Assembly: GCA_963725685.1 (NCBI GenBank)
Contig: CAVRYZ010000008.1
Coordinates: 398,709 to 462,708, forward strand
DNA from: an uncultured Chloroflexia bacterium
Lineage (GTDB): Bacteria > Chloroflexota > Anaerolineae > Anaerolineales > UBA4823
Reading direction: 5' to 3'
DNA length: 64,000 nt
Of this stretch, positions 23,641-49,169 are shown piece by piece (the stretch's first letter is position 1; each line of letters begins with the position of its first letter). The translations under genes and the position numbers were made by a program. The notes beneath the pieces were generated by a model that saw only the letters and a list, made by a program, of their open reading frames with translations, was not told the origin of the DNA and did not search any database.

Positions 23641-23662
23641 GTCCAGGTCCGGTTATTGATGT

Positions 23663-23700
23663 AAAGGCCTGCCAAAAAATGTAAAGGCAGGCCTTTATCT
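23663..23700 (+). terminator. Rho-independent terminator
   Basis: AAAGGCCTGCC-aaaaaatgtaaa-GGCAGGCCTTT followed by ATCTT, located 23 nt after the OYE stop. Confidence 0.6.
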
Positions 23701-23819
23701 TGATTGTTGAACTGTGTTACCAGATAATTTCCTTCCAATCAAATTTAGCCTTTCGGTGTGCGTGATAGAATCCTGGCGATAAAATCCCAATCAGGCATAG
23801 ACTGGGAAAGGGAAAGATC

Positions 23820-24790
23820 ATGCAATACAGAAAATTTGGGAGAACTAATCTCCTCGTTAGTGAAATTGGGCATGGTTTGTGGGGGATGGGTGGTTGGACG
23901 GGATCGAATGACAGGCAGTCACTATCTGCTTTGCAAAAGTCGCTCGAGATGGGCTGCAATTTTTATGATAGCGCCTGGGCGTACGGGAGGGGTCCCAGCG
24001 ACAAATTGCTGGGGAACTGATTAAGGACAATCCGGGCACGACGATCGTTGCTGCCAGCAAGGTGCCGCCTAAAAACTTCCGATGGCCAGGTTCTTCGAAA
24101 GACAAACTGAAGGATGTGTTTCCACGCCAGCATATTCTTAATTTCACGGAGCGGATCCTGGATGGTATTGGAAGAGCACCTTTGGACTTGCTGCAATTTC
24201 ATGTATGGGACGATTCATGGACCGACGATGATGATTGGAAGCAGGCTATATCAGACCTGAAATCGAAAAACCTGATCCGCTTATTTGGCTTGAGTATTAA
24301 TCGCTGGGAACCCTGGAACGGAATCAGGGCGCTCAAGACCGGTCTGGTGGATGCAGTGCAGGTTATCTATAATATTTTCGACCAGGCACCTGAGGATGAG
24401 CTGTTCCCAGTGTGTAAAAAGATGGATATTGGGGTGATCGCCCGTGTGCCATTAGATGAGGGTGGATTATCCGGTACGTTAACCGATGATACACTCTTTC
24501 CGAGAGATGACTGGCGAGCCCGGTATTTTGGACCTGAGAACCTGCATCAAACGGTGGTGCGGGCGAATGCGCTGAAAGAATTATTGCCCAATGGCATGAG
24601 CCTGCCCGAAATGGCTCTGCGATTTACCTTGACCGATAATGCCGTGAGTACAACCATCGTGGGTATGCGGAATTTAGAACACCTGGAGGAGGATGTACGG
24701 GTGAGCGACGGGATCGGTTTACCTGAGGAATTAATCACCAGGCTGCGACCGCATCGATGGGATCGCAAGGTTGCTTCCTGGTCAGATTGA
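23820..24790 (+). pseudogene. Aldo/keto reductase interrupted by a 1-nt frameshift in a G4 run (pseudogene or homopolymer sequencing error)
   Basis: Frame A reads MQYRKFGRTNLLVSEIGHGLWGMGG...AWAYGRGPSDKLLGN*. The AKR continues in the next frame as ELIKDNPGTTIVAASKVPPKNFRW... to 24790. Adding one G to the GGGG run at 24011-24014 restores ...SDKLLGELIKDNPG.... Confidence 0.7.
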
Positions 24791-35300: not shown

Positions 35301-35590
35301 GACGGCATCACCAGGCTGGTAATGGCATACTGGATTGGATTGGTGCCCGCACCGGAGTGGGCAACCCAGAGTCCACCGCTCATTACGGTGAGGTCACCCG
35401 CAACTCCACCATAGTCAAAGTTCTCATCCAGAAGTGGGTCGGCCAACACACCCGATTGGTGGCGCACAGCCGGTAATCCACTGGCTTGAGCCTGACTGGT
35501 GGGCGAAAAAGCGGGCAGGATCAGCATGAGCACCATGATGGCTCGAGCTGATATGCTTAAATAATGACGGTACTTCCCTTGTAAGTGCAT
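29351..35590 (-). CDS. Giant secreted multidomain protein (2079 aa)
   Basis: Domain order, N- to C-terminal:
- N-terminal signal/TM segment IMVLMLILPAFSPTSQAQA.
- Two tandem copies of a 218-aa module.
- DUF11-like repeat (also one near the C-terminus, EVSTPELVIPGSLVTYTIVLSNTG).
- OB-fold-like segment FAIQDETGGLYIYP.
- SbsA-Ig-type domains (PPTVTATNPAE.., PPAIVAVSPLE..).
- PHP motif FGDIHNHTSYSDG...ISDHS...NADTHT.
- CARDB-like domain.
- Second OB-fold-like segment LYVQDETGGITVHAP. Confidence 0.85.
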   Translation of the reverse strand: MHLQGKYRHYLSISARAIMVLMLILPAFSPTSQAQASGLPAVRHQSGVLADPLLDENFDYGGVAGDLTVMSGGLWVAHSGAGTNPIQYAITSLVMPSYVSSGIAGSAVFDLSGEDANRTFAEQTGSVVYYASLVNLSMATTAGDYFIHFKNSTTGFAARLFARDSAGALQFGIGTSSTPTYGTTNFAYNTTYLVVAKHDQVSGASDVFVLDSCSSTEPAPLASATGTPLASILGIAIRQGGATTGPNGTVDGIRVADNWADAATCYVPPPLLDENFSYGGSAGDLTVVSAGNWIAHSGAGTNPVQYAPTSLSMPSYASSGIAGSATFTSLGGEDVNRSFAAQSTGTVYFAALVNLSSATTTGDYFLHIKDTGTSNLRARVYAKNTGGQLNFGLFPSSGTPIYGATNFAFGTTYLVVAKYNINNLDSALYVLDTCSYTEPSIPLVSVSLIGTSVAMSAVAIRQGGATSSPAGTVDGIRVATNWAAAARCVDVPPIAEMTIGKTAPSSVSVNETFDYTLSAVNSLGEPATQVVITDSLPISVTFVSASDGGQLIDTNVISWTIPSMADGTTAIRTITVTAPATEGTLVNDMYGVWASNWITGTLGDPVTTSVIDPDILSTIAEARAGGAGWYGTIRGNVTVLPGSFATRSFAIQDETGGLYIYPPYGTVIPPLSLGDLVQIKGSMSVYHALLELSTIDYINWIDTGTVPAPLVTPTGGLAPTQGRLVQIQGTALSMTGTTNKTILINDGSGETSVYIYGTTGIDTSSFTFPMLMRVTGMSGAYDTPQVNPRFQADIVDLRPPTVTATNPAEAALDVNLYRPLEATFSKAMDPASLTPATFTLVDSVGPVSGVVSYDAGSFTASFTPDVSLSPFTVYTATLTTGVTDVYAIPLSAPYEWSFTTGAADITPPAIVAVSPLEDATEVALTANVVITFTEDMHPLSLDGEHFILEGPFGIVPYHMSYNPANFVVTLNPDAKFLATTLYTATVLGTTADWAGLTLGEDKIWSFETSIEPPMLVYFGDIHNHTSYSDGSGTPDQALAAGAAAGFDFMAISDHSYAIDDTEWANTLAAVEAATNSNFVALRGFEYTQGAEGHINVYNTVRHAVRTNTGCSYCDYTPNLEAGSTVMGFYQWASTTGMIGLDPAGTVMQFNHPGWINFNDWTYHPEVSDIARMEEVGNGNGTSYDFSEDEYIRSLDYGWKVGASNNADTHTAYWGTNTDHRTGVLMSGLTKEALLEALRERRTFATEDKNFSLRMKANGAWMGSEIANSGTIQFEIEGDDPDGELASLVQIITDQGEVAALYEPTNASFTWTPLLDISTGVHYYYVRVTQADSDRIVSSPVWTLGSEDISITDLVIQPTIPTIYNPSLLTVRVTNRNIAPRTVTVSMDVNGVFLSSVEVYAPGNGDATANFSWQPVSVGDAVVTAQLIGAPEGDNPDDNTSLLNLTVTDEHLPLILIDAGHGNMNAQGSEMQMLVNDLSDHQYNVLKNLDELTVTDLNPTVVKLLIITAPQTAYTNAELTAIGDYVAAGGSLWLCGLSDYTGSVPWAATVANRENDILAAIESHTGAQINMRMNDDEILEGNDNNGYVFGPIWGDFPSEYTTTIGINVEAMASWSVNSLRGRTPGTPLTADTPDVHIVVQGDLDTGYSDDSYHNPFHTSNTDADGAGDAYIYNPTWVYPNDPPEPPVGALPVPMAAVTQLPNGAGRILLYGDSNDAFTTYAYTAGDGKQNELFNLEAAMWLMGEPLHLSTIAEARAQTELNQPDNLNKLVWIEGEITAAYGEFFNVLYVQDETGGITVHAPAGDIDPTSYTRGTKVRVVGTIGIYNGDTEIEFFEAEMVQVITPSTGEVAPLPFTTYQASLEENQGWLAVITATVTTKVGEDTLFVDDGSGLVRVFLDGYNGDFADIQVYDLVRVTGLVSEDGDGQRIRVRNHGMHPEYSDDVVKLPQELALGISKEVSTPELVIPGSLVTYTIVLSNTGNGLVLQVTLTDVLPEGINFVAFLEDGGATEDGGTISWTGNLPAGADVTVVFTASVDTDFSLYGETIVNTAHYESSILNGEATAVFTVAAPNKVWLPILRK
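34127..35434 (-). repeat. Tandem duplication of a roughly 218-aa (654-nt) N-terminal module inside the giant gene
   Basis: Copy 1 covers aa 53-270 (LLDENFDYGGVAGDLTVMSGGLWVAHSGAGTNPIQYA...GTVDGIRVADNWADAATC). Copy 2 covers aa 271-488 (LLDENFSYGGSAGDLTVVSAGNWIAHSGAGTNPVQYA...GTVDGIRVATNWAAAARC). The copies are collinear over their full length. Confidence 0.8.
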
Positions 35591-36907: not shown

Positions 36908-37723
36908 ATGATAGATCAACCTAAAGGAGAAAAGCCCGCCCTGACGGTCATTATCCAGTCTTGGTGGACTCCCGCGCTGGTTGTGGTCGCGCTGGTGGTT
37001 GGGCTGTTGGCGGGTTATTTCGGTCACCCGTTGTTAGCAAAAGACTCGCAGCCCACGCAACCCGTTGTAGTGGTTAATACGCCGGTACCCTCTGATCCCA
37101 CTGGCCAGCTTTCAAGCCCGACAGCCACCGTGAATCCTACCATCGCTGCGATCGACAGTACTGAGAAATTGATGGCATACCTTGTCCAGAATACCACCCA
37201 CTTCAAAGGCGATCCCAACGCCACGGTCACAATCATCGAATTTAGCGATTATCAATGACCATACTGCGGGCGTTTTGCCGCTGACGCGGGTCGTCAGATC
37301 GAAACAACTTACGTAGATACAGGCAAAGTGCGTTTTGGTTATTTCAACTTTGCCTTCCTGGGAGATGAATCACAGTGGTCAGCTGAAGCTGCTGAATGTG
37401 CTGGTGATCAAGATGCATATTGGGAATTTCATGATTACCTGTTCACCCATCAGAGTGGTGAGAATGGGGGTGCGTTCAGCAAAGATAACTTGAAAGGCTT
37501 CGCAGCCAGCATGAAATTGGATACAAAGGCATTCAATACCTGCCTTGACTCGGGAAAATATACTCAGCTCGTCCAGGATCAAACCAATATTGGCCGGCAA
37601 TTAGGGGTATCCTCCACGCCTACTTTTGCCGTCAATGGGAAGCCTGTGGTCGGGGCGCAATCTTTCGATACTTTCAAAGCTACCATCGATGGGCTTCTAA
37701 ACCCACCTGCCCCAACCCCGTAG
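36908..37723 (+). CDS. Membrane-anchored DsbA-like thiol:disulfide oxidoreductase with an in-frame TGA (candidate Sec) at the first position of the CxxC motif
   Basis: Track ORFs 36908..37258 and 37328..37723 share one frame. The read-through sequence is ...ATVTIIEFSDYQ-TGA(37256-37258)-PYCGRFAADAGRQIETTYVDTGKVRFGYF..., with no other stop. DsbA/BdbD proteins normally read F-S-D-(Y/F)-Q-C-P-Y-C here. There is an N-terminal TM anchor. Confidence 0.7.
37281..37297 (+). promoter_or_regulatory. Candidate bacterial SECIS-like hairpin downstream of the DsbA-like TGA
   Basis: CTGACG-cgggt-CGTCAG. The 6-bp stem starts 23 nt after the TGA and the loop contains G and U. An alternative weaker hairpin lies at 37264-37283. 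Confidence 0.35.
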
Positions 37724-37746
37724 TTGATACGCAGTTTTAGTATCTC

Positions 37747-37786
37747 AACGAGCAGACGCCACATGCCTGCTCGTTGTTGTTTTATT
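37747..37786 (+). terminator. Rho-independent terminator after the DsbA-like gene
   Basis: AACGAGCAG-acgccacatgc-CTGCTCGTT followed by GTTGTTTTATT. Confidence 0.6.
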
Positions 37787-37816
37787 GGTATACTGTAGAT
37801 AACGTTACAGGATTAC
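37786..37816 (+). promoter_or_regulatory. Extended -10 promoter (TGgTATACT) plus an operator-like motif upstream of alr
   Basis: TGGTATACT lies at 37786-37794. TTACAGGATTAC at 37805-37816 contains an 11-mer (TTACAGGATTA) identical to part of the site at 4237-4247. Confidence 0.35.
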
Positions 37817-37836
37817 TGGGACCCAGAGCGAGATAG

Positions 37837-38991
37837 ATGCCATCCATTAATGACCCCACAATCGGCTCGAACGAGATAGTCCGCCCCACCCTGGTGGAGG
37901 TGGACTTGAAGCGCCTGGCGGACAACTTCAATGCTATCCGCCAGCACATCGGCTCTGCCGGGGTGATGCCCATCCTCAAGGCAAATGCGTACGGTCATGG
38001 CTTGCTGCGCGTGGCACAGCTGATGGAAGCCCTGGGCGCGGATTACATCGGGGTTGCCGTTTTGGAAGAGGGCATCCTGCTGCGCGAGAACGGCATCCGC
38101 ATGCCCATCCTGGTGCTGGGAGGTATCCTGGGCAATCAGGTGCCAGGATTCCTGAAGTACGACTTAACCATCACCGCTTCTTCCATCGAAAAACTATCCC
38201 AGGTGGATGAAATGGCCGCCCAGATGGGTGTTAAGGCGAAGGTTCACCTGAAGATTGACACGGGGATGGAACGGATTGGGGTGCATTATTACAATGCACC
38301 TGGTTTCCTGGAAGCCACCCTGAAATGCCGATCGATCAACTTTGAAGGCATCTATTCTCATTTTGCCAATGCCGACCTGCCTGATTTGCAGGATGCACGT
38401 TTACAGCTAGAGCGCTTCATGGAAGTCTTGTCCTTTTATGATCAGCATAGCCTGCCCCCTCCACCCTTGCGCCATATGGCAAATTCGCCTGCTATTTTGC
38501 GCCTGCCGGAAGCCAACTTTGATCTCGTCCGCCCAGGTTTGCTGCTGTATGGAGTTTATCCATCATTGCTGATTCCTCATTCCGTCAAGGTTTACCCGGC
38601 TTTGAGCTGGAGATCACGTGTGGTGTACTTCAAAGTTATCCTGCCCAACCACCCGGTGGGGTATGGCTCCAGCTGGCAAACGGATCATATGGTGCGGGCA
38701 GTGACTGCCCCGGTGGGTTATGGGGATGGCTATTTTCGCAGCATGTCGAATAAAGCCATGGTTCTGCTGCACGGTAAAAAATACCCCGTTGTGGGGCGGA
38801 TCTCCATGGACCAAATCGTGATCAATATCGAATGGGACAGCGCATATAACGATGATGAGGTCATCCTGATCGGCGAATCAGGCACCGAGTCCATCACCTG
38901 TGAAGACCTGGCAGTTTGGGCAGGCACCATCCCTTATGAAATCCTGACCAATATCAATACGCGTGTGCCGCGCATTTATAAGGGTGATTAA
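37837..38991 (+). CDS. alr: Alanine racemase
   Basis: 384 aa with the PLP-Lys motif PILKANAYGHG and C-terminal catalytic-Tyr-region segments. Confidence 0.9.
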   Translation: MPSINDPTIGSNEIVRPTLVEVDLKRLADNFNAIRQHIGSAGVMPILKANAYGHGLLRVAQLMEALGADYIGVAVLEEGILLRENGIRMPILVLGGILGNQVPGFLKYDLTITASSIEKLSQVDEMAAQMGVKAKVHLKIDTGMERIGVHYYNAPGFLEATLKCRSINFEGIYSHFANADLPDLQDARLQLERFMEVLSFYDQHSLPPPPLRHMANSPAILRLPEANFDLVRPGLLLYGVYPSLLIPHSVKVYPALSWRSRVVYFKVILPNHPVGYGSSWQTDHMVRAVTAPVGYGDGYFRSMSNKAMVLLHGKKYPVVGRISMDQIVINIEWDSAYNDDEVILIGESGTESITCEDLAVWAGTIPYEILTNINTRVPRIYKGD

Positions 38992-39047
38992 GTATCGAAT
39001 TTGGCAATTAAGACAATTTCTGCCAGCAGAATACTGAAAGTTCAGGT

Positions 39048-39926
39048 CTATGGGGGCGCAAAAGAAGGCTGCAATTTCTCGCTGGTAAGGATCACCAACC
39101 CGATAAAGATTAATCCAATCCCGACGACTGCCAGGGCAGATAAAGCCTCGTGCAGAAAGACCACCCCCAACAATCCAGCCGTCAGGGGCTCTCCCAGGGT
39201 GAGGCTGGCAGCAGTAGCCACGGGTACCAACCGCAACCCACGGGCGAATAATGTATAGGCGAAACCGGCAGTGATCACCCCAAGATGCAGGATGACCAGG
39301 TACCCGGCTGGCTGCGACAACCAACGGAGATCGGCAGTGACAAGCAGCGGAAGAACGAATAAAGCCCCCAGACAAAATGTCACTGCCATGACTGCCTCAG
39401 GCGCGTGATCGTCGAGCAACCCCTTGCTGACGGTGGTAAAAACTGCATACGACCCGCCGGCGCAGATGGCCAGGAAAATACCCAATAAATCGATATGAAT
39501 TTTTTCACCTGCGGTGATCAACAGCACACAGCCGATGATACCCAAAAAAGTCGCTATCACCCAACAGCGGCTGGGGCGTTCACCCCGGACAAGGAAGCCG
39601 ATTGGACCTGCCAGGATCGGTGTGCTGCCAATCCCAACGATGGTGCCTATGGCTACGCCGGTGCGCGCCACCCCGGCAAAGAAAAACATCTGATAGGCTG
39701 CCATGCTCAGCGCACCCAGTAAGGTCGGCCAAAAAGGCCAGCGTTTTCCATCACGCAGTGCACCCCGCCAGGCAGCAATACTCAATAACGTCAACCCCCC
39801 TAATGCAATCCGCAGGGTTCCGATGATGATGGGCTGCGCACCGGTTGGAGCTAAGGTCTGGGCAGTACCATTGGTGCCCCACAAGCATGCCGCCAGCAGA
39901 ACGAGCCAATAGCCACGCGATTTCAT
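39048..39926 (-). CDS. EamA/DMT family transporter
   Basis: 292 aa and about 10 TM helices. The start MKSRGYWLVLLAACLWGTNGTA is typical of EamA-domain proteins. Confidence 0.8.
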   Translation of the reverse strand: MKSRGYWLVLLAACLWGTNGTAQTLAPTGAQPIIIGTLRIALGGLTLLSIAAWRGALRDGKRWPFWPTLLGALSMAAYQMFFFAGVARTGVAIGTIVGIGSTPILAGPIGFLVRGERPSRCWVIATFLGIIGCVLLITAGEKIHIDLLGIFLAICAGGSYAVFTTVSKGLLDDHAPEAVMAVTFCLGALFVLPLLVTADLRWLSQPAGYLVILHLGVITAGFAYTLFARGLRLVPVATAASLTLGEPLTAGLLGVVFLHEALSALAVVGIGLIFIGLVILTSEKLQPSFAPP

Positions 39927-39975
39927 CGGTATGCCATGAATTTCATATCTTTATTTTTCGCGAGATCGATGGTTA

Positions 39976-40308
39976 TCATTTCTCGGGCAGGGTAGAGGCA
40001 TATGCAACACCCATCTCAACCCAAGACTGCAAATCTATATCAGCTGCTACACCTTCAGGCGCCACCAAAATCCATCCTGCCATCGGTTTTCCGGGCATCA
40101 CCATGAATGGCCGCATGTAGGCCCGCCTCAGGGCGGAGGCATTGTTTTCAGCGCCCACTCGCACAATTAAGTCATCCCCTTGTACGCCACAAACCATATT
40201 TCCACGCTGCATAAACCCGACTCCGCCGAACATTTTCTTTTCGACAATCTCTGGGTGCACTTCCAGCACGATGCGGATGCGTTGAGTGAGATTTTGGTCG
40301 TATGGCAT
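39976..40308 (-). CDS. TfoX N-terminal domain-containing protein
   Basis: 110 aa. KKMFGGVGFMQRGNMVCGV is the pattern I associate with the TfoX/Sxy N-terminal domain. Confidence 0.6.
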   Translation of the reverse strand: MPYDQNLTQRIRIVLEVHPEIVEKKMFGGVGFMQRGNMVCGVQGDDLIVRVGAENNASALRRAYMRPFMVMPGKPMAGWILVAPEGVAADIDLQSWVEMGVAYASTLPEK

Positions 40309-40390
40309 GAGTTCCTCCGTTCAGTCAAAGGGATGCGGAGAATTCTACCCTAAATTTTCACTCTCTTTACATTTTTCTCACTTGTGCGTT

Positions 40391-40437
40391 AAAAAAAACT
40401 GGCAGGTCCAGGATCAATGATTCAAGATCTGCCAGTC
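40391..40437 (-). terminator. Rho-independent terminator at the end of the flx/hdr-like cluster
   Basis: The reverse strand reads CTGGCAG-(23 nt)-CTGCCAG followed by TTTTTTTT, 18 nt after the stop at 40455. Confidence 0.6.
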
Positions 40438-40454
40438 AGACTCGTATAAAATAT

Positions 40455-41306
40455 TTACAGGAAGCTCTCCAGCAAGGAACCTACTTCCGCCATGGTGAAT
40501 ACAGGTCCGTCCACACAGATCAGCTTGGTGCCAAGGTTGCAGCGCCCGCACTTGCCAATCCCACAGTGCATACGCGCTTCCAGCGTGACGTAATTCTGTT
40601 CAGGCAGGAAGTTAAGCTTTTCCACCAGCACGCGATTGACAAAGTGGATCATGATGGGCGGCCCGCAGGTGATGGTGATCGCATTGCGTGGCGAGGGAGC
40701 CACTTTTTCCAGCAGCTGGGTGATCAGACCCACACTGTGGCTCCAGGTTTCGTCAGCCTGATCAACGGTCAGGTGCAGCTCTGTGTCTGGAGTTGCGCGC
40801 CATTCATCATATTCATCCGTGAAGACCAGCATGGATGGGTTCCTGGCTGCCCAGAGAATTTGAAAATACCCATAATCCCTACGGTTGGCCATCACCGACT
40901 GGATCACCGGGCGCAGGGGGGCACCTCCGATGCCTCCCCCGATCACGATCAGGTTCTTTCCCTTAAACTTATCCATGGGGAAGCCATTTCCCATGGGGCC
41001 GCGAACTCCCACCATGTCTCCCACGCCCAGCTCATGCAGGTCGGTGGTGACTGAACCCAGGCGGTTGATGGCGAAATCGATCGTGGCATCCCCATTCTGT
41101 GGGATATTGGCGATCCCAAATGGGGCTTCACCCACTCCGAAGGCTGAGACGAAAGCAAATTGCCCTGGTTTATAGTCTTGGAAGGCCTTGCCACCGCCAT
41201 TAAGCATCTCGACTCGAAAGAGCTTGATCTCTGTGGCGATATCTTTAACCTCGATGAGTTTTCCGAGGTAAGGCAGCATGGGGTTGGTTTCCAGTTTGTC
41301 TGTCAT
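40455..41306 (-). CDS. FAD/NAD(P)-binding ferredoxin-reductase-type subunit with a C-terminal [2Fe-2S] motif (HydG/AsrB/FlxA-like)
   Basis: 283 aa with a PyrK/sulfhydrogenase-gamma-like fold. Motifs are RLGSVT, LIVIGGGIGGAPL and the C-terminal CGIGKCGRC. Confidence 0.8.
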   Translation of the reverse strand: MTDKLETNPMLPYLGKLIEVKDIATEIKLFRVEMLNGGGKAFQDYKPGQFAFVSAFGVGEAPFGIANIPQNGDATIDFAINRLGSVTTDLHELGVGDMVGVRGPMGNGFPMDKFKGKNLIVIGGGIGGAPLRPVIQSVMANRRDYGYFQILWAARNPSMLVFTDEYDEWRATPDTELHLTVDQADETWSHSVGLITQLLEKVAPSPRNAITITCGPPIMIHFVNRVLVEKLNFLPEQNYVTLEARMHCGIGKCGRCNLGTKLICVDGPVFTMAEVGSLLESFL

Positions 41307-41309
41307 CGG

Positions 41310-42311
41310 TTACCTCCTGCCAACATACCCCAATACTTCGGTGATATCCACATTCACCGGGCAGGCATCGATACAACGTCCGCAGCCTGTACATGATACC
41401 GGACCGTAATGGATGGGGAAATAATAGAACTTGCAGAAGAAACGGTTGCGCAGGCGCTGATTCTTCATAAATCGGGGGTTGTGCCCACCTGCCACCCGCC
41501 GGTATGGGATGCCGTTGCACGAATCCCAGCAGCGGATGCGCTCGGATTGATTTTGCCCATTGCCCCCCGCTAGAACCTCGTCGCGTACATCGAAACAACG
41601 GCAGCTGGGGCAAACATAGGCACAGATCCGGCAGCTCAAACAGCGCTCGGCCATCTCAGCCCAAAAGTCATCATTAAACCTGGCTGGCCATACTTCCTTG
41701 GGAGGAACTTTTAGCTCACGTTTTCTGGCATGGGTGGGATGAGGCCGAATCTCAGACAGTCCATCGAAAATGGGAAACTTCTTGCTGATATTCTCGCCCT
41801 TCTCGGTGATGATCTCTGCCACATAACCGCCGTTGGAGGCAGTTAGCATGATATCCATTCCGGTGGGGTCATCCGGAGAGCCACCCACATTGGTACAAAA
41901 GCAGCTGGCACCCATGGATGGGCATGCCAAACCGATGAGGGTGGTGTTCTCTCGACGGCGCGCATAGTATGGATCCACAGGTTCATTCTCAATGAACAGC
42001 GCGTCCAGGGTGAGCAATCCCCTGGCATCACAAGGGCGGACGCCAAAAATAATCGATTTACCCTCTGGGATGGTTTCAGTTAACTTCACCTGCCCGGCAA
42101 GTTTTTCAATCAGCATCAGGCGCTCGGTAGGTGGGAAGAAAACTTCCTTAACTGACATGAATGAACGTACAAAGTCCCATACCACCTCATGCGTATCAGC
42201 CACCGGGCGGTAAAGGATGTTGCCGGCAATGTCCAATGGGGCGATCAGGGTTTGATCATGCGCCAGGCGGTCAAGCCAGGCCGCCAGCTCCTGGTGAGTC
42301 AGGTAGTTCAT
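41310..42311 (-). CDS. 4Fe-4S dicluster subunit (sulfhydrogenase beta/AsrA/FlxB-like)
   Basis: I trimmed the start to ATG 42311 (MNYLTHQELAAWL), which overlaps the upstream stop as ATGA. Motifs are FGVRPCDARG, CFCTNVGG, CLSCRICAYVCPSCRC and CTGCGRCIDACP. Confidence 0.75.
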   Translation of the reverse strand: MNYLTHQELAAWLDRLAHDQTLIAPLDIAGNILYRPVADTHEVVWDFVRSFMSVKEVFFPPTERLMLIEKLAGQVKLTETIPEGKSIIFGVRPCDARGLLTLDALFIENEPVDPYYARRRENTTLIGLACPSMGASCFCTNVGGSPDDPTGMDIMLTASNGGYVAEIITEKGENISKKFPIFDGLSEIRPHPTHARKRELKVPPKEVWPARFNDDFWAEMAERCLSCRICAYVCPSCRCFDVRDEVLAGGNGQNQSERIRCWDSCNGIPYRRVAGGHNPRFMKNQRLRNRFFCKFYYFPIHYGPVSCTGCGRCIDACPVNVDITEVLGYVGRR

Positions 42312-43726
42312 GGCAGGTTCTCCTCTCCGCCCAGGATGGTCACAAAGGGTGGCGGTACGGCTGCCATCCCGGCCTGGTAGCTGAAAATAGACTCCATCTC
42401 CTGCGCCATCTTGCGGTGGATCAGGCTGAGGGGGAGGTCCATCGGGCAGGCGCGTTCGCACTCATTACAGCCCACACAGCGCCCTGCCAGGTGGTATGCT
42501 CTCCCCAGGTGGAAGGCACGCTTTTCATCCACATCAATTCCCATGCCCACCCAGAGTGAATCGTCGCGCTCATACAGGCAGATGGGGCAATCACACATCG
42601 GGCATGCCTGCCGGCAGGCGTAGCAACGAATGCAGCGGTCGAACTGGCTGAGCCAGAAGTTCATCCTTTCAACAGGTGTGAGGGCATTCAGGCGTTCGAT
42701 CCCGGGGTAAACATGCTCGGGGGGGATTTCGCGATAAGTCGTTTCAGGGTCTCCAATGAGCGTATCGTATACCACCGGTGTACGCACGTTACAGGCTGCG
42801 CAGCGCGTCTGGATCGCTCCACTTTTATCGTTATTGAACCCCGCTCCCTGCCGGATGCCATCGCAGGCCATGCCAATCACATACACCTGCTCACGTAAGA
42901 ACCGATTCTCAGCCAGCAGGACGTTTATGGAACGGCTGTCGCATGGTTTTACTACTACGGCTGCTTTGGGTATGCTATCAGGCTTCTTTTTCTTTCCGCC
43001 ATCCGTTCCCCAGCCCAGTTTTTTACTCAAGTAAGCAGTCAGGTTATGGGTGCAGTCCTTGTTCCAGACCAGGCGTTCAACATTTTCGGGCTGGTGGATA
43101 AATGCGGGGCGTGTCCGTCCCCTGGGCCCCACTTCATAACCGATCACACTCTCCACCTGTTTGTTGGCCAGTAAATCTCGGGCGGCTGATCGCAAAGCCT
43201 CGGTTTGCTGTTCGTGAACGGGTGTGTTATAAACGGCATGCTTGGGCTGTTCATCATTAAAAGCTGAATAACGGTGGCTGATAGGTTCCTGTTCCCACAC
43301 AAAATGCGCCTGGCGCTCGGAAACTTTCCAATGGATAGGTCCGAGAGCACGCACAGTATCGGTAAAATCAGTGGTGATGTGCGAGTAACGCTCCCCTTCC
43401 GAAGCAGACACCCAATCAAGCCGGATGCGTTCAGGTTCAAGGCCGGCATAGGCCAGCAAGGCGCGCAAGATAGGCAGACGCTTGGCTGCCCGGTGGTTGC
43501 CGGTATTGTAATGGCACTCGCCGATATGGCAACCCAATACCAGCACACCGTCCGCCCCCTGCTCGAAGGTGCGCATGATCAGCTCGGGTGAAACCCGCCC
43601 TGAGCATGGCACACGGATGTCGCGGATATTAGCCGGAGATTTCAAGCGGGCGATGCCAGCGGTATCGGCACCGGTGTAACTGCACCAGGTGCACAGATAA
43701 GCAATGATCTTGGGTTCAAATGGCAT
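42308..43726 (-). CDS. MvhD-like (hydrogenase delta/FlxD-like) domain fused to an Fe-S cluster domain
   Basis: 472 aa. The N-terminal roughly 135 aa read IIAYLCTWCSYTGADTAG...VPCSGRV...GADGVLVLGCHIGECHY, an MvhD pattern. The C-terminal part has CIRCYACRQACPMCDC and CVGCNECERACP clusters. A strong Shine-Dalgarno (TAGGAGGTGG) is present. Confidence 0.8.
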   Translation of the reverse strand: MPFEPKIIAYLCTWCSYTGADTAGIARLKSPANIRDIRVPCSGRVSPELIMRTFEQGADGVLVLGCHIGECHYNTGNHRAAKRLPILRALLAYAGLEPERIRLDWVSASEGERYSHITTDFTDTVRALGPIHWKVSERQAHFVWEQEPISHRYSAFNDEQPKHAVYNTPVHEQQTEALRSAARDLLANKQVESVIGYEVGPRGRTRPAFIHQPENVERLVWNKDCTHNLTAYLSKKLGWGTDGGKKKKPDSIPKAAVVVKPCDSRSINVLLAENRFLREQVYVIGMACDGIRQGAGFNNDKSGAIQTRCAACNVRTPVVYDTLIGDPETTYREIPPEHVYPGIERLNALTPVERMNFWLSQFDRCIRCYACRQACPMCDCPICLYERDDSLWVGMGIDVDEKRAFHLGRAYHLAGRCVGCNECERACPMDLPLSLIHRKMAQEMESIFSYQAGMAAVPPPFVTILGGEENLP

Positions 43727-43737
43727 GCCACCACCTC

Positions 43738-46700
43738 CTATGGGTTCAGGATCCCGGGAACAACCGGTTCAGCCGCCAATGCCCCGATCATCTCATTGAC
43801 GATTTGTTGATCATCGAAATGAATGAGGGTAATGGCTTTATCACGGCAGGTTGAGGCGCAGGTACCGCAACCTTTACACAGGTATGTATTGACTGAAGCC
43901 ACGCTTTCTTTCAGTTCGATGGCGCTGTATGGGCAGGCATTGACACACAAGCCACAGCCGGCACAACGCTGCAGGTTCACTGAGGCAACCGATGGATCCA
44001 GGGCAATCGTACCCTGATCGAGCAGAGACAGGGCGGCGGCGGCTGCGCCACCTGCCTGAGCCACGCTGTCTGGGATATCCTTCGGGCTCTGGCAGGCGCC
44101 AGCGACATAAATGCCCTCGGTGGTAGTTTCCACAGGAGCTAGCTTGGGATGTTTCTCGAGGAAGAACCCATCCGGGCTGCGGCTGATCCCGAATATGTGA
44201 GCCACCTGGGCAGCATCCGCCTGCGCCTCCAGACCTGTGGATAGGATAACCATATCCACTTCGACGTGGTCCGGCTGACCATGAAAGGCTTCGTCCCATT
44301 TCACAACGAGATGCCCATCCTGAGCCTGGATACTTCTGACATGCCCGTGGTAGAAATTAACCCCTCTTGCACGGGTGCGGTTATAAAACTCTTCGTAGTC
44401 TTTACCGAAGGAGCGCATATCGCGGTAGATTTCATGTACTTCAGCGCCCACATATTCGTGCACCAGCTGCGCCAGTTTGAGAGAGTACATGCAGCATGCC
44501 CGTGAACAATACTCGTTATATTTGTCGTCCCGGCTGCCCACACAGTGCACAATAGCAACCCGCCTGGGTGGCTGGCCATTTTTAAGGGTGACCCTTCCAA
44601 GGGTCGGTCCACCAATATTGATCAGACGCTCAAATTCCATCGAGCTAAGCACATTATCCAGCTGACCATACCCCAGCTCAGGAATGCGGGATGGGTCAAA
44701 ATCTTTGAAACCTGTTGCCAGCACGATTGTGCCTACCTTGAGATCCAGATAGCTATCCTTCATATCATGGTTGATGGCACCGCGTTCACACGCAGACAGG
44801 CATTCCAGGCATTCGGAACAGATACCACAACGCAAACAGCGCTCGGCTTCGGTAATTGCCTCTTCTTCTGTAAATGCCAGATCGACTTCATTGAAGTTGT
44901 TTTCCCGCGCTTTCGCTGGAATGGTGCGGGTCTTGGTACGGGCATTGTCCGTTGCCCAGCCAATTTCCATCTTTTCCGCCACTTCTTCCTTGGTAAAAGT
45001 GGCGATGGGCAGCTTGGGTGGTTCCTGAACTCCTTCAACCCCACGCAGGAAGCGATCGATGCACCTAGCCACATGATGACCTTCTCCGATGGCGTCCACG
45101 ACGAAGAATGTGGTCCCGCGGCGAACGTCACCTGCCACGAACACACCTGGCATGCTGGACATCATTTCATCATCGGTTTCGATACCCATTGAGCTGAGCT
45201 TGCGGATGCGAGTATCGGCAGGCAGGAATGTGAAATCTGGCTGCTGACCGACGGCCCAAATGACCAGGTCACATGGAATTACATGTTCAGTGCCGGGGAT
45301 TTCTTCCACCTGGCGTTTGCCATTGACGATCGCGCCGACCTTGGCTTCCACGCAACGAATCCCAACGATTTGATTTAACTGGATGACAACCTCTTTGAAC
45401 ACCCGGTTGCGGATGATTTCAACCCCCTCTTTGACAGCCTCATCCATCTCGTTGAATGACGCGCGCATACCACGACACACAATTTTCACCTTGGGGCTGC
45501 CCAGTCGAATGGACACGCGGGCAGCATCGAGGGCCACGTCTCCAGCCCCGATCACTGCGATTTCGCGACCACTCAAGTTGAGCTTTTCTCCCAGGCAAGC
45601 CCGGCGAAGCAGGTCAAGGCTGAGCCAGTTATCGGGATGCTCTGTTCCCGGAATGCTCAGCTTCCAGGCACTATGAGCACCTGTGGCAATAATCACCGCT
45701 TCATAACCCTGGTCAAACAGCCCGGGGATATCGTCCACGCGCGTGCTCAGGCGCATTTCCACGCCTTCATCGACAATTTGCTGAATCTCCCAATCCAGGC
45801 GGTCATAGGGCAGGCGGTGAGGTGGAATTCCGACCCGCATCATGCCCCCGGCAATGGGAAGAGAGTCAAAAACTGTGGCACTGTAACCGAAGCGCACCAG
45901 ATCCAAAGCTGCGGTCATGCCAGCCGGACCAGCCCCGATGATGGCTACTTTCTTACCGGTGGGGATGGGAGCGTGTGAAAATGGAGTGCCCACCAGTGAT
46001 TTATCGCGCATGTTGGGCAGCTCGTCACGGTGAGCAAAAGCCCAATCGGCGACGAACCACTTCAACTTCATGATGCTGACGGGTTCATCATATAACCCCC
46101 GACTGCATTGTTCCTCACAGCGACGGTTGCACACCCGCCCGCAAACCGAGGGGAATGGATGCTCGCGCCGGATAGCCCAATAGGCATCGGCATATCGCTT
46201 TTGCTTGATCAGGGCGATATATCCCTGGGCACGCTGGTCGGTGGGGCAGGCAGCCCGGCAGGGTGCGATGCCACGTTTTTCGATTACATATGCCCCGGGA
46301 ACTGACTGAGCTGAATTGCGGTAGATGGCTTTGCGGGTGCTTAACCCCCGGTCAAAGGTGTTAATCACATCCACCGGGCAGACGTCGGCGCACTTTCCGC
46401 AACCTGTGCATTGCGATTCATCCACAAAACGGGCCTTCCTGCGTACTCGCACCTGGTAATTGCCAACATACCCGGATACATTCTCAACTTCACTGTAGGT
46501 GAGCAGGCTGATGTTTTCGTGACGTCCAACGGACGTCGTTTTGGGGGTAAGTATTCAAGCCGCACAGTCTAGCGTGGGAAAGGTCTTGTAGAGCTGGGCC
46601 ATATGCCCGCCGATACTTGGCTCACGCTCCACCATATAGACCTTCTTGCCTGCATCTGCCAGGCGCAGGGCAGCCTCGATCCCGGCAATACCGCCGCCCA

Positions 46701-47148
46701 GCACTAATGCTGATTGTTCCATATCAACCGTGCGCATGTTCAGCGGGCGGTGATGGTGCACCCGGCTGACCGCTGCGCTGACCATGTGTTTGGCTTTTTC
46801 GGTTGCCAGGGCAGGATCGTCCACCACCCATGAGCAGTGCTCACGAATGTTGGCCATCTGGAAGAAGAATGGATTCAACCCACCTTCTTTACAAGCCCTG
46901 CGAAAGGTAGGCTCATGCATCAATGGCGTGCATGAGGCCACTACCACGCGGTTCAATCCCTGCTCGCGGATATCCTGCTTGATCAAGTCTTGACCAGGGT
47001 CGGAGCACATATAGGTGTAATCGCGTGCCAGAACAACATTTTCCAAATTTCGGGCATACTCCACCACGGCAGTTACATCCACCTTGGCAGCGATATTGGT
47101 ACCGCAGTGACATATGTAGACCCCGGTCTTTATTTTGGAGAGGTTCAT
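43738..47148 (-). CDS. hdrA: HdrA-like flavoprotein (1136 codons) with an in-frame TGA (candidate Sec198) and an inserted NfnB/GltD-like NAD(P)H-binding module
   Basis: Track ORFs 46555..47148 and 43738..46452 share one frame (102-nt gap, no other stop). The read-through is ...KTFPTLDCAA-TGA(46557..46555)-ILTPKTTSVGRHENISLLTYSEVENVSGYVGNYQVRVRRKARFVDESQCTGCGKC.... The insert at about 45040-46272 carries the GltD-type Cys motifs and two dinucleotide loops (IIGAGPAGMTAA, VIGAGDVALDAA). Confidence 0.8.
46521..46537 (-). promoter_or_regulatory. Candidate SECIS-like hairpin downstream of the HdrA(1136) TGA
   Basis: The reverse strand reads GACGUCC-guu-GGACGUC. The perfect 7-bp stem starts 18 nt after the UGA, with a GUU apical loop. 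Confidence 0.5.
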
Positions 47149-49169
47149 GCCACCTCCTCTTCAAGCAACACGGGCTTTTTCAAAACCGACATGATTCCAA
47201 CGATTTCTGCCAGGATTTGATCCTGGGTAAAGCCATTCTGGATCGGTGCATGCACCAGGCAAGCGGCCACGCAGGCACCGCAACCTTTGCATAACACCTC
47301 GTTCACGTGTGCCACGATATGCCCTTCTAACTCCACCATATCGATCGCATGGTATGGGCATTGGCTCTCACAGGTACGGCATCCACAGCATATGGTTTGG
47401 TCAATATAGGTGGTGAAAGGTTCCAGGGTGACGTGCCCGGCATCCATAAGCGAAAGGGCTGCCGCGGCGGCTGCGGCACCTTGGGCTACGCTATCAGGAA
47501 TATCTTTGGGACTCTGGCAGGTGCCTGCCAGGTAGACGCCGTCGGTGGTCGTTTCCACCGGAGCCAGCTTGGGATGTTTTTCTAGGAAAAAGCCATCTGG
47601 ACCGCGGCTGATGCTGAAGGTTTGCGCCACATGGGCCGCATCCGGTTGGGGTTCTATCCCTGTGCTCAGCACAACCATATCCACCAGCTGCTCGTTGGGT
47701 TCACCTGTGAACAGGTCGGTTGAGGTGATTTTTAGCTGTCCATTATCTGGTGTGACCTGTAAACCACTCCCACCGGCTTCCTGGTCAAAGCGGGTGAAGT
47801 GCACCCCTGACCGTGCCACACGCTCGTAAAAAGCTTCGTAGCCTTTACCAAAGGCGCGCATATCGCGGTAATACTCGTGTACTTCTGCGCCCACATAATC
47901 GCATATCAACTGTGCCAGCTTGAGCGAGTACATGCAGCACACCCGTGAGCAATATTCGTGATACTCTTTGTTCCGGCTGCCAACACAGTGTACGATAGCA
48001 ACCCTTTCCGGTTTACGGCCGTCCTTGAGCCGTACCTCCCCGGTGGTGGGCCCACCGGTGTTGATCAAACGCTCCAATTCCATGCTGGTGAGCACATTAT
48101 CCAGCTCACCATAACCGTATTGTTGAATCCGGCGGGCTTCAAAATCCTTGAACCCCGTCGCCAGGATGATTGCTCCAACTTCCAGGTCAAGATGCTCTTC
48201 CTGCTGCTCGAAATTTATTGATCCGGTCTGGCAGAACTTTTCACACGCCCGGCATTTGCCCTTTTGGAAATAGGCACAATTTTGGGTGTCTATGACCGGA
48301 ACACGCGGCACGGCCTGTGCGAACGGGAAATATATCGCCGAGCGATTACCCAATCCCAAATCGAACTCGGATGGGATCTTTTTCCAAGGGCATTTTTCAA
48401 CGCAGGTACCGCATCCTGTGCAGGTGCTCTCGTCCACGTAGCGTGGTTTTCGGCGCACTTTTACGGTGAAATTGCCTACATATCCGGAAACGGATTCGAC
48501 CTCGCTGTAGCTCAGCAGGGTGATGTTTTCGTGGCGTCCAACGGACACCATTTTGGGGGTGAGAATTCAGGCCGCACAGTCGAGGGTAGGAAAGGTCTTA
48601 TAAAGTTGGGTCATATGCCCGCCGATGCTCGGCTGCCTCTCCACCAGGTAAACATGCTTGCCGGTGTCAGCCAGGCGCAGGGCGGCCTCAATCCCGGCAA
48701 TACCCGCACCCACCACCATGGCGCTTTGTTTCATCTCCACCTGGCGGGCTTCCAGCGGCTTTTGGTATTGCACCCGCCTGACAGCGGCAGACAGGAGGGC
48801 TTTAGCTTTGTGGGTCGCGCTGGGCATGTCTTCCGACACCCATGAGCACTGCTCGCGGATGTTGGTCATATGGAATAAAAATGGATTTAACCCCGCATCA
48901 GCACAAGCTCGCCGGAAGGTGGCTTCATGCATCAAAGGCGAACAAGAAGCCACTACAATACGATCCAGGCCCTCATTACGGATATCATCCTTGATGAGAG
49001 CCTGGCCAGGGTCGGAACACATATAAGCATAATGGCGGGCAACCAACACATTCTCCAATGAGGCGGCATGGTTGGTCACGGCTTCAACATCCACCATCGA
49101 GGCGATATTGGTGCCGCAATGGCAGATATAAACCCCGATCTTGGGGCTGCCTTTATTGGTTGGTTTCAT
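47145..49169 (-). CDS. hdrA: Heterodisulfide reductase subunit A-like flavoprotein (674 aa) with an in-frame TGA (candidate Sec201)
   Basis: Track ORFs 48567..49169 and 47145..48551 share one frame (15-nt gap). The read-through is ...KTFPTLDCAA-TGA(48569..48567)-ILTPKMVSVGRHENITLLSYSEVESVSGYVGNF.... The N-terminal Cys domain, FAD loop VVGAGIAGIEAAL and ferredoxin motifs are intact. The stop overlaps the next hdrA start as ATGA. Confidence 0.85.
48533..48549 (-). promoter_or_regulatory. Candidate SECIS-like hairpin downstream of the HdrA(674) TGA
   Basis: The reverse strand reads GGUGUCC-guu-GGACGCC. The 7-bp stem includes one G-U pair. Position and loop are the same as in the paralog, with compensatory base changes. 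Confidence 0.5.

What the first reader, a model, noticed from the sequence alone, without database searches (positions are those of the whole stretch)
36908..49169. Three independent TGA-at-catalytic-Cys events within 12 kb imply a Sec-decoding organism whose selenoproteome is missed by ORF calling
- The DsbA-like gene and both hdrA genes each carry exactly one in-frame TGA at a redox-active Cys position.
- Together they argue that this genome uses the Sec-insertion trait.
- No selA/selB/selC/selD lies in this window, so the machinery must be elsewhere.
- Every TGA-split gene pair in the rest of the genome should be re-examined.
Basis: inference. Interest (0 to 1): 0.7.

Follow-up and report, generated by a model that had tools for sequence, protein, structure and literature searches.

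The report
Selenocysteine UGA codons in redox genes
Three genes on this fragment of an uncultured Anaerolineae (Chloroflexota) genome, two HdrA flavoproteins and a DsbA-like thiol oxidoreductase, almost certainly read one in-frame UGA as selenocysteine, a well-known recoding that gene callers mistake for a stop or for tryptophan.

Summary
Each of the three genes has exactly one in-frame TGA, and in each it sits where homologues have a redox or cluster cysteine: 37256-37258 (+), 46555-46557 (-) and 48567-48569 (-).

The Sec reading is strongly supported by comparison with relatives:
- The HdrA TGA occurs in 130 of 144 hdrA copies from 75 related loci. The DsbA TGA occurs in all 18 sequences of its clade.
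- dN/dS is 0.02-0.14 on both sides of every TGA.
- A hairpin 16-22 nt downstream of each TGA has frozen synonymous sites and one compensatory change per family. It is absent from the Cys forms.
- TGA also ends 15 of 46 window genes, so the genetic code is not reassigned.

- The two hdrA events are paralogues sharing one SECIS, so there are two independent families, not three events.
- In HdrA the residue is the Cys197 equivalent, a cluster ligand or Cys-Sec pair member. It is not a proven catalytic residue.

selA, selB, selD and tRNA-Sec were not found in the window or in 1.39 Mb of relatives' loci, and the rest of the genome was unreachable.

HdrA and DsbA-like (UxxC) are established selenoprotein families, and Anaerolinea thermophila has SelA/B/D. 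This is an ordinary new member of a known kind.

The parts
36908..37723 (+). DsbA-like / Thioredoxin_4 selenoprotein gene (271 residues read through). It has an N-terminal hydrophobic anchor and a UPYC active site.
   Evidence: Translation. Pfam PF13462 at 2.6e-38 and PF01323 at 2e-17. Best solved relative is BdbD 3EU3. dN/dS is 0.10 upstream and 0.14 downstream of the TGA against L001.
37256..37258 (+). Sec-UGA of the DsbA-like gene (first Cys position of CxxC).
   Evidence: TGA in all 18 members of the clade down to about 64% amino-acid identity. Cys (TGY) in relatives at 57% identity or less.
37281..37297 (+). Candidate SECIS hairpin CUGACG-CGGGU-CGUCAG. The stem starts 22 nt after the UGA and the apical loop starts 28 nt after it.
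   Evidence: Sequence. 100% paired in 16 distinct sequences, with one compensatory A-U to G-C change in L160 (GAC>GGC with CGT>CGC). Third-position entropy is 0 in codons +9, +10, +11 and +13, against 0.9-1.7 in downstream codons.
43738..47148 (-). hdrA-long: an HdrA with an NfnB/GltD-like insertion of about 460 aa (Fer4_20 + Pyr_redox_2). 1136 residues read through.
   Evidence: Translation. Pfam. dN/dS 0.022 upstream and 0.035 downstream. Public gene calls split the orthologue into 197 + 904 aa.
46555..46557 (-). Sec-UGA of hdrA-long (Cys197 equivalent).
46520..46538 (-). SECIS hairpin of hdrA-long: GACGUCC-GUU-GGACGUC.
   Evidence: It carries the compensatory G-C to A-U variant relative to the family consensus.
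47145..49169 (-). hdrA-short: a canonical-length HdrA, 674 residues read through. Its own terminal stop is TGA, overlapping the ATG of hdrA-long (ATGA).
   Evidence: Translation. PDB 5ODC at E = 4.7e-212 over the full length. dN/dS 0.044 upstream and 0.041 downstream. All database relatives at 83-96% identity are 464-468-aa fragments (one of 430 aa) that start after the TGA.
48567..48569 (-). Sec-UGA of hdrA-short (Cys197 equivalent).
48532..48550 (-). SECIS hairpin of hdrA-short: UGGUGUCC-GUU-GGACGCCA. 8 bp, with the apical loop 24 nt after the UGA.
   Evidence: Family alignment A1 (124 sequences) is 99% paired. Stem codons are frozen at synonymous sites.
40455..43726 (-). Rest of the operon. 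None of these genes has an internal TGA. MvhD/FlpD + Fer4: 42308-43726. Fer4_22 protein: 41310 to about 42311. NfnA/PyrK-like NAD_binding_1 + DHODB_Fe-S_bind: 40455-41306.
   Evidence: Pfam. The same order is seen in L001.

Best explanation
The three TGAs are selenocysteine codons. While the mRNA is translated, a short hairpin just downstream of each UGA acts as a bacterial SECIS. In hdrA this is an 8-bp stem with a GUN loop. In the dsbA-like gene it is a 6-bp stem with a CGGGU loop. The hairpin recruits SelB carrying Sec-tRNA(Sec), so the ribosome inserts Sec instead of terminating.

The products are full-length proteins:
- Two HdrA flavoproteins with Sec at the Cys197-equivalent position of the C-x-x-C/U pair. 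One of them is fused to an NfnB-like module.
- A membrane-anchored DsbA/BdbD-like thiol-disulfide oxidoreductase with a U-P-Y-C active site.

The two hdrA genes inherited codon and SECIS from one ancestral Sec-hdrA by duplication. The dsbA-like gene is a separate and younger Cys-to-Sec conversion, restricted to one clade.

What is shown: the position of the TGAs, their conservation, selection on both halves of each gene, the hairpins and their constraint, and that TGA is otherwise a stop.

What is inferred: that SelB and tRNA-Sec exist in this genome, and that selenium is actually incorporated.
For: 1. The TGAs align with Cys in homologues and in solved structures.

2. The syntenic MAG L001/L003 (84.5-87.4% nucleotide identity) keeps all three TGAs. 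dS is 0.54-0.88 and dN/dS is 0.02-0.14 both upstream and downstream of each TGA.

3. Across the 75 loci returned by the genome scan plus L002 and the window (76 sources), nearly all Anaerolineae or Anaerolineales MAGs, the HdrA site is TGA in 130 copies and TGY in 14. 64 sources are all-TGA, 11 are all-Cys and 1 is mixed. Where several copies share a locus, they are all Sec (54 loci) or all Cys (L012, L015), as expected for a genome-level trait.

4. hdrA hairpin:
- In 124 distinct TGA contexts, third-position entropy is 0 at stem codons +7 GTG, +8 TCC and +10 GGA, and 0.28 at +11 CGC.
- It is 1.39 at loop codon +9 and 1.0-1.9 in flanking four-fold codons.
- 99% of cells are paired. There is one G-C to A-U compensatory pair and U.G to C-G changes.
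- 118 of 128 Sec forms have 8 of 8 pairs. Cys forms with the same amino acids have 2-7 pairs and use varied codons.

5. dsbA hairpin:
- All 18 clade members carry the TGA (16 distinct sequences were aligned), at 64-98% protein identity.
- 100% of cells are paired and the synonymous sites are frozen.
- There is one compensatory A-U to G-C change, made by a non-synonymous plus a synonymous substitution.

6. TGA terminates 15 of 46 window genes, including hdrA-short itself.

7. No start codon follows the TGAs closely. The next start is 24 codons downstream in dsbA and 34 in hdrA-long. The intervening stretch is the most conserved part of each gene.

8. HdrA and DsbA-like UxxC are listed selenoprotein families (PMC1794560, PMC13188914). 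Sec197 has been seen in the M. maripaludis HdrA cryo-EM structure (PMC13518236). Anaerolinea thermophila has SelD/SelA/SelB.
Against: - No Sec machinery was seen. None is in the window or in 1.39 Mb of relatives' loci (ARAGORN and tblastn with E. coli SelA/SelB). These loci cover only a few percent of each genome, so this is uninformative rather than negative.
- ARAGORN may miss the 8/4-type tRNA-Sec reported for Chloroflexi (PMC5389517).
- No Rfam SECIS family matches, even at E up to 10.
- Covariation is thin, with one compensatory event per hairpin. For dsbA, 33 of 500 shuffles reach the observed score.
- Single-sequence folding z-scores are weak, -0.2 to -1.6.
- There is no protein-level evidence.
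Confidence: 0.9

Rival explanations
1. The UGAs are recoded, but as cysteine rather than selenocysteine, by a selC*-type tRNA-Cys(UCA) delivered by a SelB paralogue. This has been described for some Deltaproteobacteria.
For: Such a system exists (PMC5389517). It would use the same UGA-plus-hairpin signal, so none of the sequence evidence here distinguishes it from Sec insertion.
Against: - It has been reported only in Deltaproteobacteria and a few other lineages, and always alongside a complete Sec system.
- Cultured Anaerolineae carry ordinary SelA/B/D.
- Keeping a UGA and SECIS for tens of species merely to encode Cys is unparsimonious, because TGY would do. Two relatives (L012, L015) do use TGY and have lost the hairpin.
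Confidence: 0.04
2. The TGAs are true stops. The genes would then be split, with two polypeptides each, or be pseudogenes or assembly errors.
For: Automatic annotation treats them this way. Some of the related MAGs are long-read assemblies, and the window has at least one apparent frameshift elsewhere.
Against: - The same TGA occurs in over 60 independent assemblies from different projects and platforms.
- dN/dS is about 0.02-0.14 on both sides.
- There is no nearby restart codon. A restart would delete the second active-site Cys of DsbA and the conserved ILTPK segment of HdrA.
- The region just after each TGA is the most conserved DNA in its gene.
- A split would cut through the FAD-binding domain of HdrA.
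Confidence: 0.02
3. TGA is reassigned genome-wide to Trp or Gly (code 4 or code 25). This is what the gene callers that produced the 'W' proteins assumed.
For: Database proteins P0001-P0007 read FSDYQ-W-PYC at the site.
Against: - 15 of 46 window genes end in TGA. Pfam-complete proteins stop there, and hdrA-short's own stop is TGA.
- In-frame TGAs occur only at the three Cys positions.
- Homologues have Cys at the site, never Trp or Gly.
- The lineage is Chloroflexota with about 52% GC.
Confidence: 0.01

Closest known systems
Sec-containing HdrA of Methanococcus maripaludis / M. jannaschii and of Deltaproteobacteria and Clostridia (e.g. Syntrophobacter fumaroxidans, Moorella thermoacetica)
   Same: - Same protein family over the full length (5ODC, E = 4.7e-212).
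- Sec at the same residue, Cys/Sec197 of the CxxC/U pair.
- Tandem hdrA-hdrA arrangement with mvhD, as noted for bacteria in PMC1794560.
   Different: - The host is an uncultured Anaerolineae.
- No hdrBC, frhA or frhG genes are present in the operon.
- One copy carries an NfnB-like insertion, so far described for ANME-1 archaeal HdrA9-11 (PMC9012536).
- MvhD here is a Cys form.
- The SECIS is of the bacterial in-frame type, not an archaeal 3'-UTR element.
DsbA-like selenoprotein form 1 (UxxC, PF01323), e.g. in Anaeromyxobacter dehalogenans and Desulfotomaculum reducens
   Same: A PF01323/PF13462 thioredoxin-fold domain with Sec replacing the first Cys of CxxC.
   Different: This clade is nearest to BdbD-type, membrane-anchored Thioredoxin_4 proteins. 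The Sec form is confined to a shallow clade of 64% identity or more, surrounded by Cys forms at 57% or less. Orthology with the published examples was not tested.
E. coli fdhF/fdnG SECIS-SelB recoding system
   Same: An in-frame UGA is followed within a few tens of nucleotides by a hairpin inside the coding sequence. The apical loop contains G/U. This is the mechanism inferred here.
   Different: - The hairpins here are shorter, 6-8 bp with a 3- or 5-nt loop.
- No bulged U is evident.
- There is no sequence similarity, and no Rfam SECIS model matches.
- SelB binding has not been tested.
selC* tRNA-Cys(UCA) / SelB* recoding of Sec codons as Cys (PMC5389517)
   Same: It would act on the same UGA-plus-hairpin signals.
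   Different: It is not known in Chloroflexota, and nothing here calls for it.

Membership tests
Bacterial selenoprotein gene (UGA-Sec with in-frame SECIS) | In-frame UGA at a position occupied by Cys in homologues | tested here: met
Bacterial selenoprotein gene (UGA-Sec with in-frame SECIS) | The UGA is conserved among orthologues and both gene halves are under purifying selection | tested here: met
   dN/dS 0.02-0.14 on both sides, with dS 0.54-0.88. 130 of 144 hdrA copies and 18 of 18 dsbA-clade copies are TGA.
Bacterial selenoprotein gene (UGA-Sec with in-frame SECIS) | A stem-loop shortly downstream of the UGA with G in the apical loop, conserved as a structure. The published bSECIS model gives about 16-37 nt from UGA to apical loop. 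That figure is recalled from memory, not checked here. | tested here: met
   Hairpins have the loop starting 24 nt (hdrA) and 28 nt (dsbA) after the UGA. 99-100% of cells are paired, synonymous sites are frozen, and there is one compensatory change in each. The hairpin is absent from Cys forms. Covariation support is modest.
Bacterial selenoprotein gene (UGA-Sec with in-frame SECIS) | selA, selB, selD and tRNA-Sec present in the same genome | not testable with these tools
   Absent from the window and from 1.39 Mb of relatives' loci. The class-level precedent is Anaerolinea thermophila, SelD+ SelA+ SelB+.
Bacterial selenoprotein gene (UGA-Sec with in-frame SECIS) | Selenium actually incorporated (75Se labelling or mass spectrometry) | not testable with these tools
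   This needs an experiment.
HdrA selenoprotein family | Full-length HdrA architecture: N-terminal cluster domain, thioredoxin-reductase-like FAD domain and ferredoxin domains | tested here: met
   Pfam. Aligns to 5ODC_A residues 3-649 at E = 4.7e-212.
HdrA selenoprotein family | Sec at the Cys197 position | tested here: met
   Alignment KTFPTNDCSIC197ILAPK against KTFPTLDCAA-U-ILTPK. Sec197 in M. maripaludis (PMC13518236).
DsbA-like selenoprotein form 1 (UxxC) | PF01323 DSBA domain with a UxxC motif | tested here: met
   PF01323 at 2e-17 and PF13462 at 2.6e-38. Motif U-P-Y-C. The family definition is taken from PMC13188914.
Rfam-curated SECIS families | A match to a curated covariance model | tested here: not met
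   No SECIS hit at the gathering threshold or at E up to 10. The hairpins are therefore not members of any curated SECIS family, although they fit the generic bacterial SECIS layout.
Genetic code 4 / 25 (TGA as a sense codon genome-wide) | TGA not used as a terminator | tested here: not met
   15 of 46 genes end in TGA. No other plausible TGA read-through was found in the window.
HdrA-NfnB fusion (ANME-1 HdrA9-11 type) | An NfnB/GltD-like module of about 500 aa inserted in the HdrA ferredoxin domain | tested here: met
   Fer4_20 plus Pyr_redox_2 occupy residues about 295-690 of the 1136-aa protein, between HdrA segments. Described in PMC9012536. Common descent with the archaeal fusions was not tested.

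The most novel reading that the evidence does not exclude
The tandem Sec-HdrA and Sec-HdrA::NfnB proteins may form an obligate heterodimer together with MvhD, a Fer4_22 protein and an NfnA-like subunit. Each Sec197 equivalent would bridge to the partner's N-terminal [4Fe-4S] cluster. The result would be a selenium-dependent, NADPH-linked Hdr-Nfn hybrid with two bifurcating flavins, widespread in soil Anaerolineae and hidden by broken gene calls. HdrA::NfnB fusions have so far been discussed only for ANME-1 archaea.
Probability: 0.2. Interest if true: 0.5.

Novelty: new member of a known kind. Interest (0 to 1): 0.25.

Why it matters
- **Annotation.** In this widespread group of soil and sediment Anaerolineae MAGs, the hdrA genes are deposited as two fragments. 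The dsbA-like gene is deposited as a fragment, or as a protein with a spurious Trp in its active site. Metabolic reconstructions and protein-family statistics for these MAGs are therefore wrong at these loci.
- **Ecology.** It flags these organisms as selenium users.
- **Detection.** It provides two compact, very well conserved SECIS hairpins that could seed lineage-specific selenoprotein searches in Chloroflexota.
- **Principle.** It does not change what is known about Sec decoding.

Tried and rejected
- **Other TGA-split pairs in the window.** The pairs 13977/14562 and 1901/284 are separate complete genes by Pfam. TGA stops followed by open frame (FGGY kinase, AKR, RecO, ABC) end Pfam-complete proteins.
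- **Motif scan of relatives.** A scan of 1.39 Mb of relatives' loci for further C..U / U..C read-through candidates gave only off-frame noise.
- **Rfam.** No SECIS family matched, at gathering or at permissive thresholds.
- **Single-sequence folding.** 65-nt stretches gave weak z-scores. For dsbA the MFE differs between sequences, so the hairpin was defined by conservation instead.
- **Sec machinery.** ARAGORN and tblastn with E. coli SelA/SelB on all fetched loci found nothing.
- **Source genome.** Exact-protein look-ups to find the window's source contig failed twice. The nearest public genome is L050 (MFD05942.bin.2.106) at 92.4% nucleotide identity.
- **DsbA relatives.** I first read the full-length database relatives of DsbA as Cys forms. 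I rejected this when their sequences showed W at the site and their DNA showed TGA.
- **PMC5424206.** I consulted it for UGA-to-Cys recoding, but it does not deal with that. PMC5389517 does.
Full report
**1. What is in the sequence**

ORF listing and translation show three genes, each interrupted by a single in-frame TGA.

- A DsbA-like gene on the + strand, 36908-37723. The TGA is at 37256-37258, in the motif FSDYQ-TGA-PYC.
- hdrA-long on the - strand, 47148-43738 (1136 codons). The TGA is at 46557-46555, in TLDCAA-TGA-ILTPK.
- hdrA-short on the - strand, 49169-47145 (674 codons). The TGA is at 48569-48567, in the same motif.

Pfam places the first gene in Thioredoxin_4/DSBA. The other two are HdrA-type flavoproteins. 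The long one carries an extra Fer4_20 + Pyr_redox_2 (NfnB/GltD-like) module.

Against solved structures:
- The HdrA TGA aligns with Cys197 of the C194-x-x-C197 pair of Methanothermococcus HdrA (5ODC, E = 4.7e-212).
- The DsbA TGA aligns with the first Cys of the CPSC active site of B. subtilis BdbD (3EU3).

The two hdrA genes head an operon with three further genes: an MvhD/FlpD-ferredoxin gene, a Fer4_22 gene, and an NfnA/PyrK-like gene.

The window has no selA, selB or selD among 56 scanned ORFs. Its only tRNA is tRNA-Arg.

**2. Stops, errors or a changed code?**

A syntenic contig from a related MAG (L001 = L003, CAWELB01) is 84.5-87.4% identical at the nucleotide level and has TGA at all three positions.

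Nei-Gojobori estimates against it give dS of 0.54-0.88. dN/dS upstream and downstream of the TGA is:
- dsbA: 0.10 and 0.14
- hdrA-long: 0.022 and 0.035
- hdrA-short: 0.044 and 0.041

Both halves of every gene are therefore under strong purifying selection.

The next possible start codon lies 24 codons (dsbA) or 34 codons (hdrA-long) after the TGA. The DNA in between is the best-conserved part of each gene.

TGA is also the ordinary terminator of 15 of 46 genes in the window. That includes hdrA-short itself, whose TGA stop overlaps the ATG of hdrA-long. This rules out a genome-wide reassignment of TGA.

**3. How widely are the TGAs conserved?**

A scan of one genome per GTDB species with HdrA-long returned 75 loci. 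Nearly all are Anaerolineae or Anaerolineales MAGs, many from the 'MFD' series. The nearest, L050, is 92.4% identical to the window over 22.8 kb. The window therefore comes from an uncultured Anaerolineae not itself present in these collections.

At the HdrA site:
- 130 copies have TGA and 14 have TGT or TGC.
- The Cys forms are both copies of L012 and of L015, one divergent third paralogue in L014, and the outgroups (Fraserbacteria, Bipolaricaulota and others).
- Where several copies lie on one locus, they are all Sec (54 loci) or all Cys (2 loci). That is the pattern expected if Sec use is a property of the genome.

In the protein database, every relative of HdrA-short at 83-96% identity is a 464-468-aa fragment (one of 430 aa) that starts after the TGA. 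Full-length (Cys) proteins appear only at 73% identity or less.

For the DsbA-like gene:
- 11 species-level genomes of the close clade have TGA.
- So do the four nearest metagenome contigs (68-76% identity).
- So do three further contigs fetched through database proteins.
- That makes 18 of 18. Cys forms begin at 57% identity or less.

The apparently full-length database relatives P0001-P0007 carry W at the site. A gene caller translated the TGA with code 4.

**4. SECIS evidence**

*hdrA.* The mRNA after the UGA reads UGA AUN CUN ACN CCN AAR AUG GUG UCC GUN GGA CGC CAC. The segment U-G-GUG-UCC / GGA-CGC-C-A forms an 8-bp stem with a GUN loop. The loop starts 24 nt after the UGA.

- Across 124 distinct TGA contexts, third-position entropy is 0.00 at the stem codons GTG, TCC and GGA, and 0.28 at CGC.
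- It is 1.39 at the loop codon GTN and 1.0-1.9 at flanking four-fold codons. For comparison, Gly at +28 uses all four codons about evenly.
- The formal pair count gives 99% of 896 cells paired. Five pairs are invariant. One pair changes G-C to A-U on both sides in 4 distinct sequences, which is the window's own hdrA-long clade (GTG..CGC to ACG..CGT). One pair changes U.G to C-G in 8 sequences.
- 118 of 128 Sec forms keep 8 of 8 pairs. The 14 Cys forms keep 2-7. Those with the same amino acids (L012, L015) use varied codons there.

*dsbA.* The block CU GAC GCG GGU CGU CAG forms CUGACG-CGGGU-CGUCAG, with the loop starting 28 nt after the UGA.

- It is 100% paired in 16 distinct sequences.
- Synonymous sites within it are invariant, while downstream codons vary (entropy 0.9-1.7).
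- L160 carries a compensatory A-U to G-C change made by GAC>GGC (Asp>Gly) together with CGT>CGC.

*Limits.* There is one compensatory event per hairpin. The shuffle control for dsbA is only 33 of 500. Single-sequence folding z-scores are weak. No Rfam SECIS model matches. The weight of the argument rests on synonymous-site freezing that is specific to stem positions and to TGA-bearing genes.

**5. Mechanism**

The best explanation is standard bacterial Sec insertion. SelB carrying Sec-tRNA(Sec) binds the hairpin as the ribosome reaches the UGA and delivers Sec.

In HdrA, the residue is described in two ways:
- as the ligand donated to the partner protomer's N-terminal [4Fe-4S] cluster (PMC9012536);
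- in the M. maripaludis cryo-EM structure, as Sec197 forming a Cys-Sec pair between FAD and cluster A3, with an unresolved role (PMC13518236).

So 'redox-active or cluster-ligand' is accurate, and 'catalytic' is not established.

In the DsbA-like protein, Sec replaces the N-terminal Cys of the CxxC motif. This protein has an N-terminal hydrophobic anchor and resembles BdbD.

The two hdrA genes share codon, motif and hairpin. They therefore count as one ancestral Sec acquisition followed by duplication. The dsbA-like Sec is a separate, shallower Cys-to-Sec conversion.

**6. Rivals**

- *UGA read as Cys through a selC*-type tRNA-Cys and SelB* (PMC5389517).* This cannot be excluded from sequence alone, but it is unprecedented in this phylum and unparsimonious (about 4%).
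- *True stops, pseudogenes or assembly errors.* Excluded by section 2 and by recurrence in dozens of independent assemblies (about 2%).
- *Code 4 or 25.* Excluded by stop-codon usage (1% or less).

**7. The machinery**

- No tRNA-Sec (ARAGORN) and no SelA or SelB (tblastn with the E. coli proteins from L078) occur in the window or in the 1.39 Mb of fetched loci.
- That is only a few percent of each genome. ARAGORN may also miss the 8/4-type tRNA-Sec reported for Chloroflexi.

Indirect support:
- Peng et al. 2016, Table S1, lists Anaerolinea thermophila UNI-1 and Caldilinea aerophila as SelD+ SelA+ SelB+, with 4 and 3 selenoproteins.
- BSepDB lists Chloroflexota among selenoprotein-rich taxa.

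**8. Comparison with what is known, and novelty**

HdrA is a classical selenoprotein family of methanogens, Deltaproteobacteria and Clostridia, where tandem hdrA genes next to mvhD/frhD were already noted (PMC1794560). 'DsbA-like protein form 1, UxxC, PF01323' is in the current catalogue of prokaryotic selenoproteins (PMC13188914).

The finding is thus a new member of known kinds, in a lineage where the trait is already documented at class level.

What is mildly new:
- how pervasive Sec-hdrA is in soil and sediment Anaerolineae MAGs;
- the compact, nearly invariant SECIS shared by the paralogues;
- the clade-restricted Sec-DsbA;
- the fact that public annotations of all of them are broken.

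The hdrA::nfnB fusion operon is the more unusual biology, but it lies outside the finding.

**9. Verdict**

Confidence in Sec decoding is about 0.9. Interest is low to moderate (0.25).

Noticed in passing
window 43738-47148 (-) with 40455-43726 (-): hdrA-long is an HdrA with an NfnB/GltD-like module of about 460 aa inserted (Fer4_20 + Pyr_redox_2). The operon ends with an NfnA/PyrK-like gene (NAD_binding_1 + DHODB_Fe-S_bind) and has no hdrBC. HdrA::NfnB fusions have been described for ANME-1 archaea (PMC9012536). Here the architecture is conserved across about 70 bacterial Anaerolineae MAGs.
   Followed up: partly
window 23643-24790 (+): An aldo/keto reductase gene appears frameshifted near 24010-24030. 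The N-terminal 'MQYRKFG...SDKLLGN' is in one frame and the rest (24062-24790, Pfam positions 84-286 of 291) is in another. This is either a pseudogene or a single-base assembly error. It is not a TGA event.
   Followed up: partly
P0001-P0007; L079-L082, L159-L161: Public protein entries for the DsbA-like orthologues read FSDYQ-W-PYC. On these short contigs the gene caller translated the Sec-TGA as Trp (code 4), which puts a spurious residue in the active site.
   Followed up: yes
L002, L004, L008, L010, L034, L065, L070, L076: Several relatives carry three hdrA copies on one locus, all with the TGA and the same hairpin. In L002 the hdrA-long region looks duplicated or rearranged: gene calls of 518, 261 and 77 aa are followed by a further 159- and 514-aa pair.
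   Followed up: no
L012 (JAIOAQ01) and L015 (CALGPL01): These two Anaerolineales MAGs have Cys codons in both hdrA copies and no hairpin. This suggests lineage-level loss, or absence, of Sec decoding. It makes a natural control for a sel-gene search.
   Followed up: partly
window 47145-47148: The TGA stop of hdrA-short overlaps the ATG of hdrA-long (ATGA). The same mRNA therefore uses UGA once as Sec and, 1.4 kb later, as a genuine terminator coupled to reinitiation.
   Followed up: yes
window 29351-35590 (-): A 2079-aa ORF with Big_5, DUF11, PHP-like and OB-fold-like segments lies just upstream of the finding. It is probably a large surface protein.
   Followed up: no
window 42308-43726 (-): The MvhD/FlpD subunit belongs to a family (FrhD/MvhD/VhuD) that is itself often a selenoprotein. 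Here it has no in-frame TGA, so it is a Cys form sitting next to two Sec-HdrA genes.
   Followed up: partly
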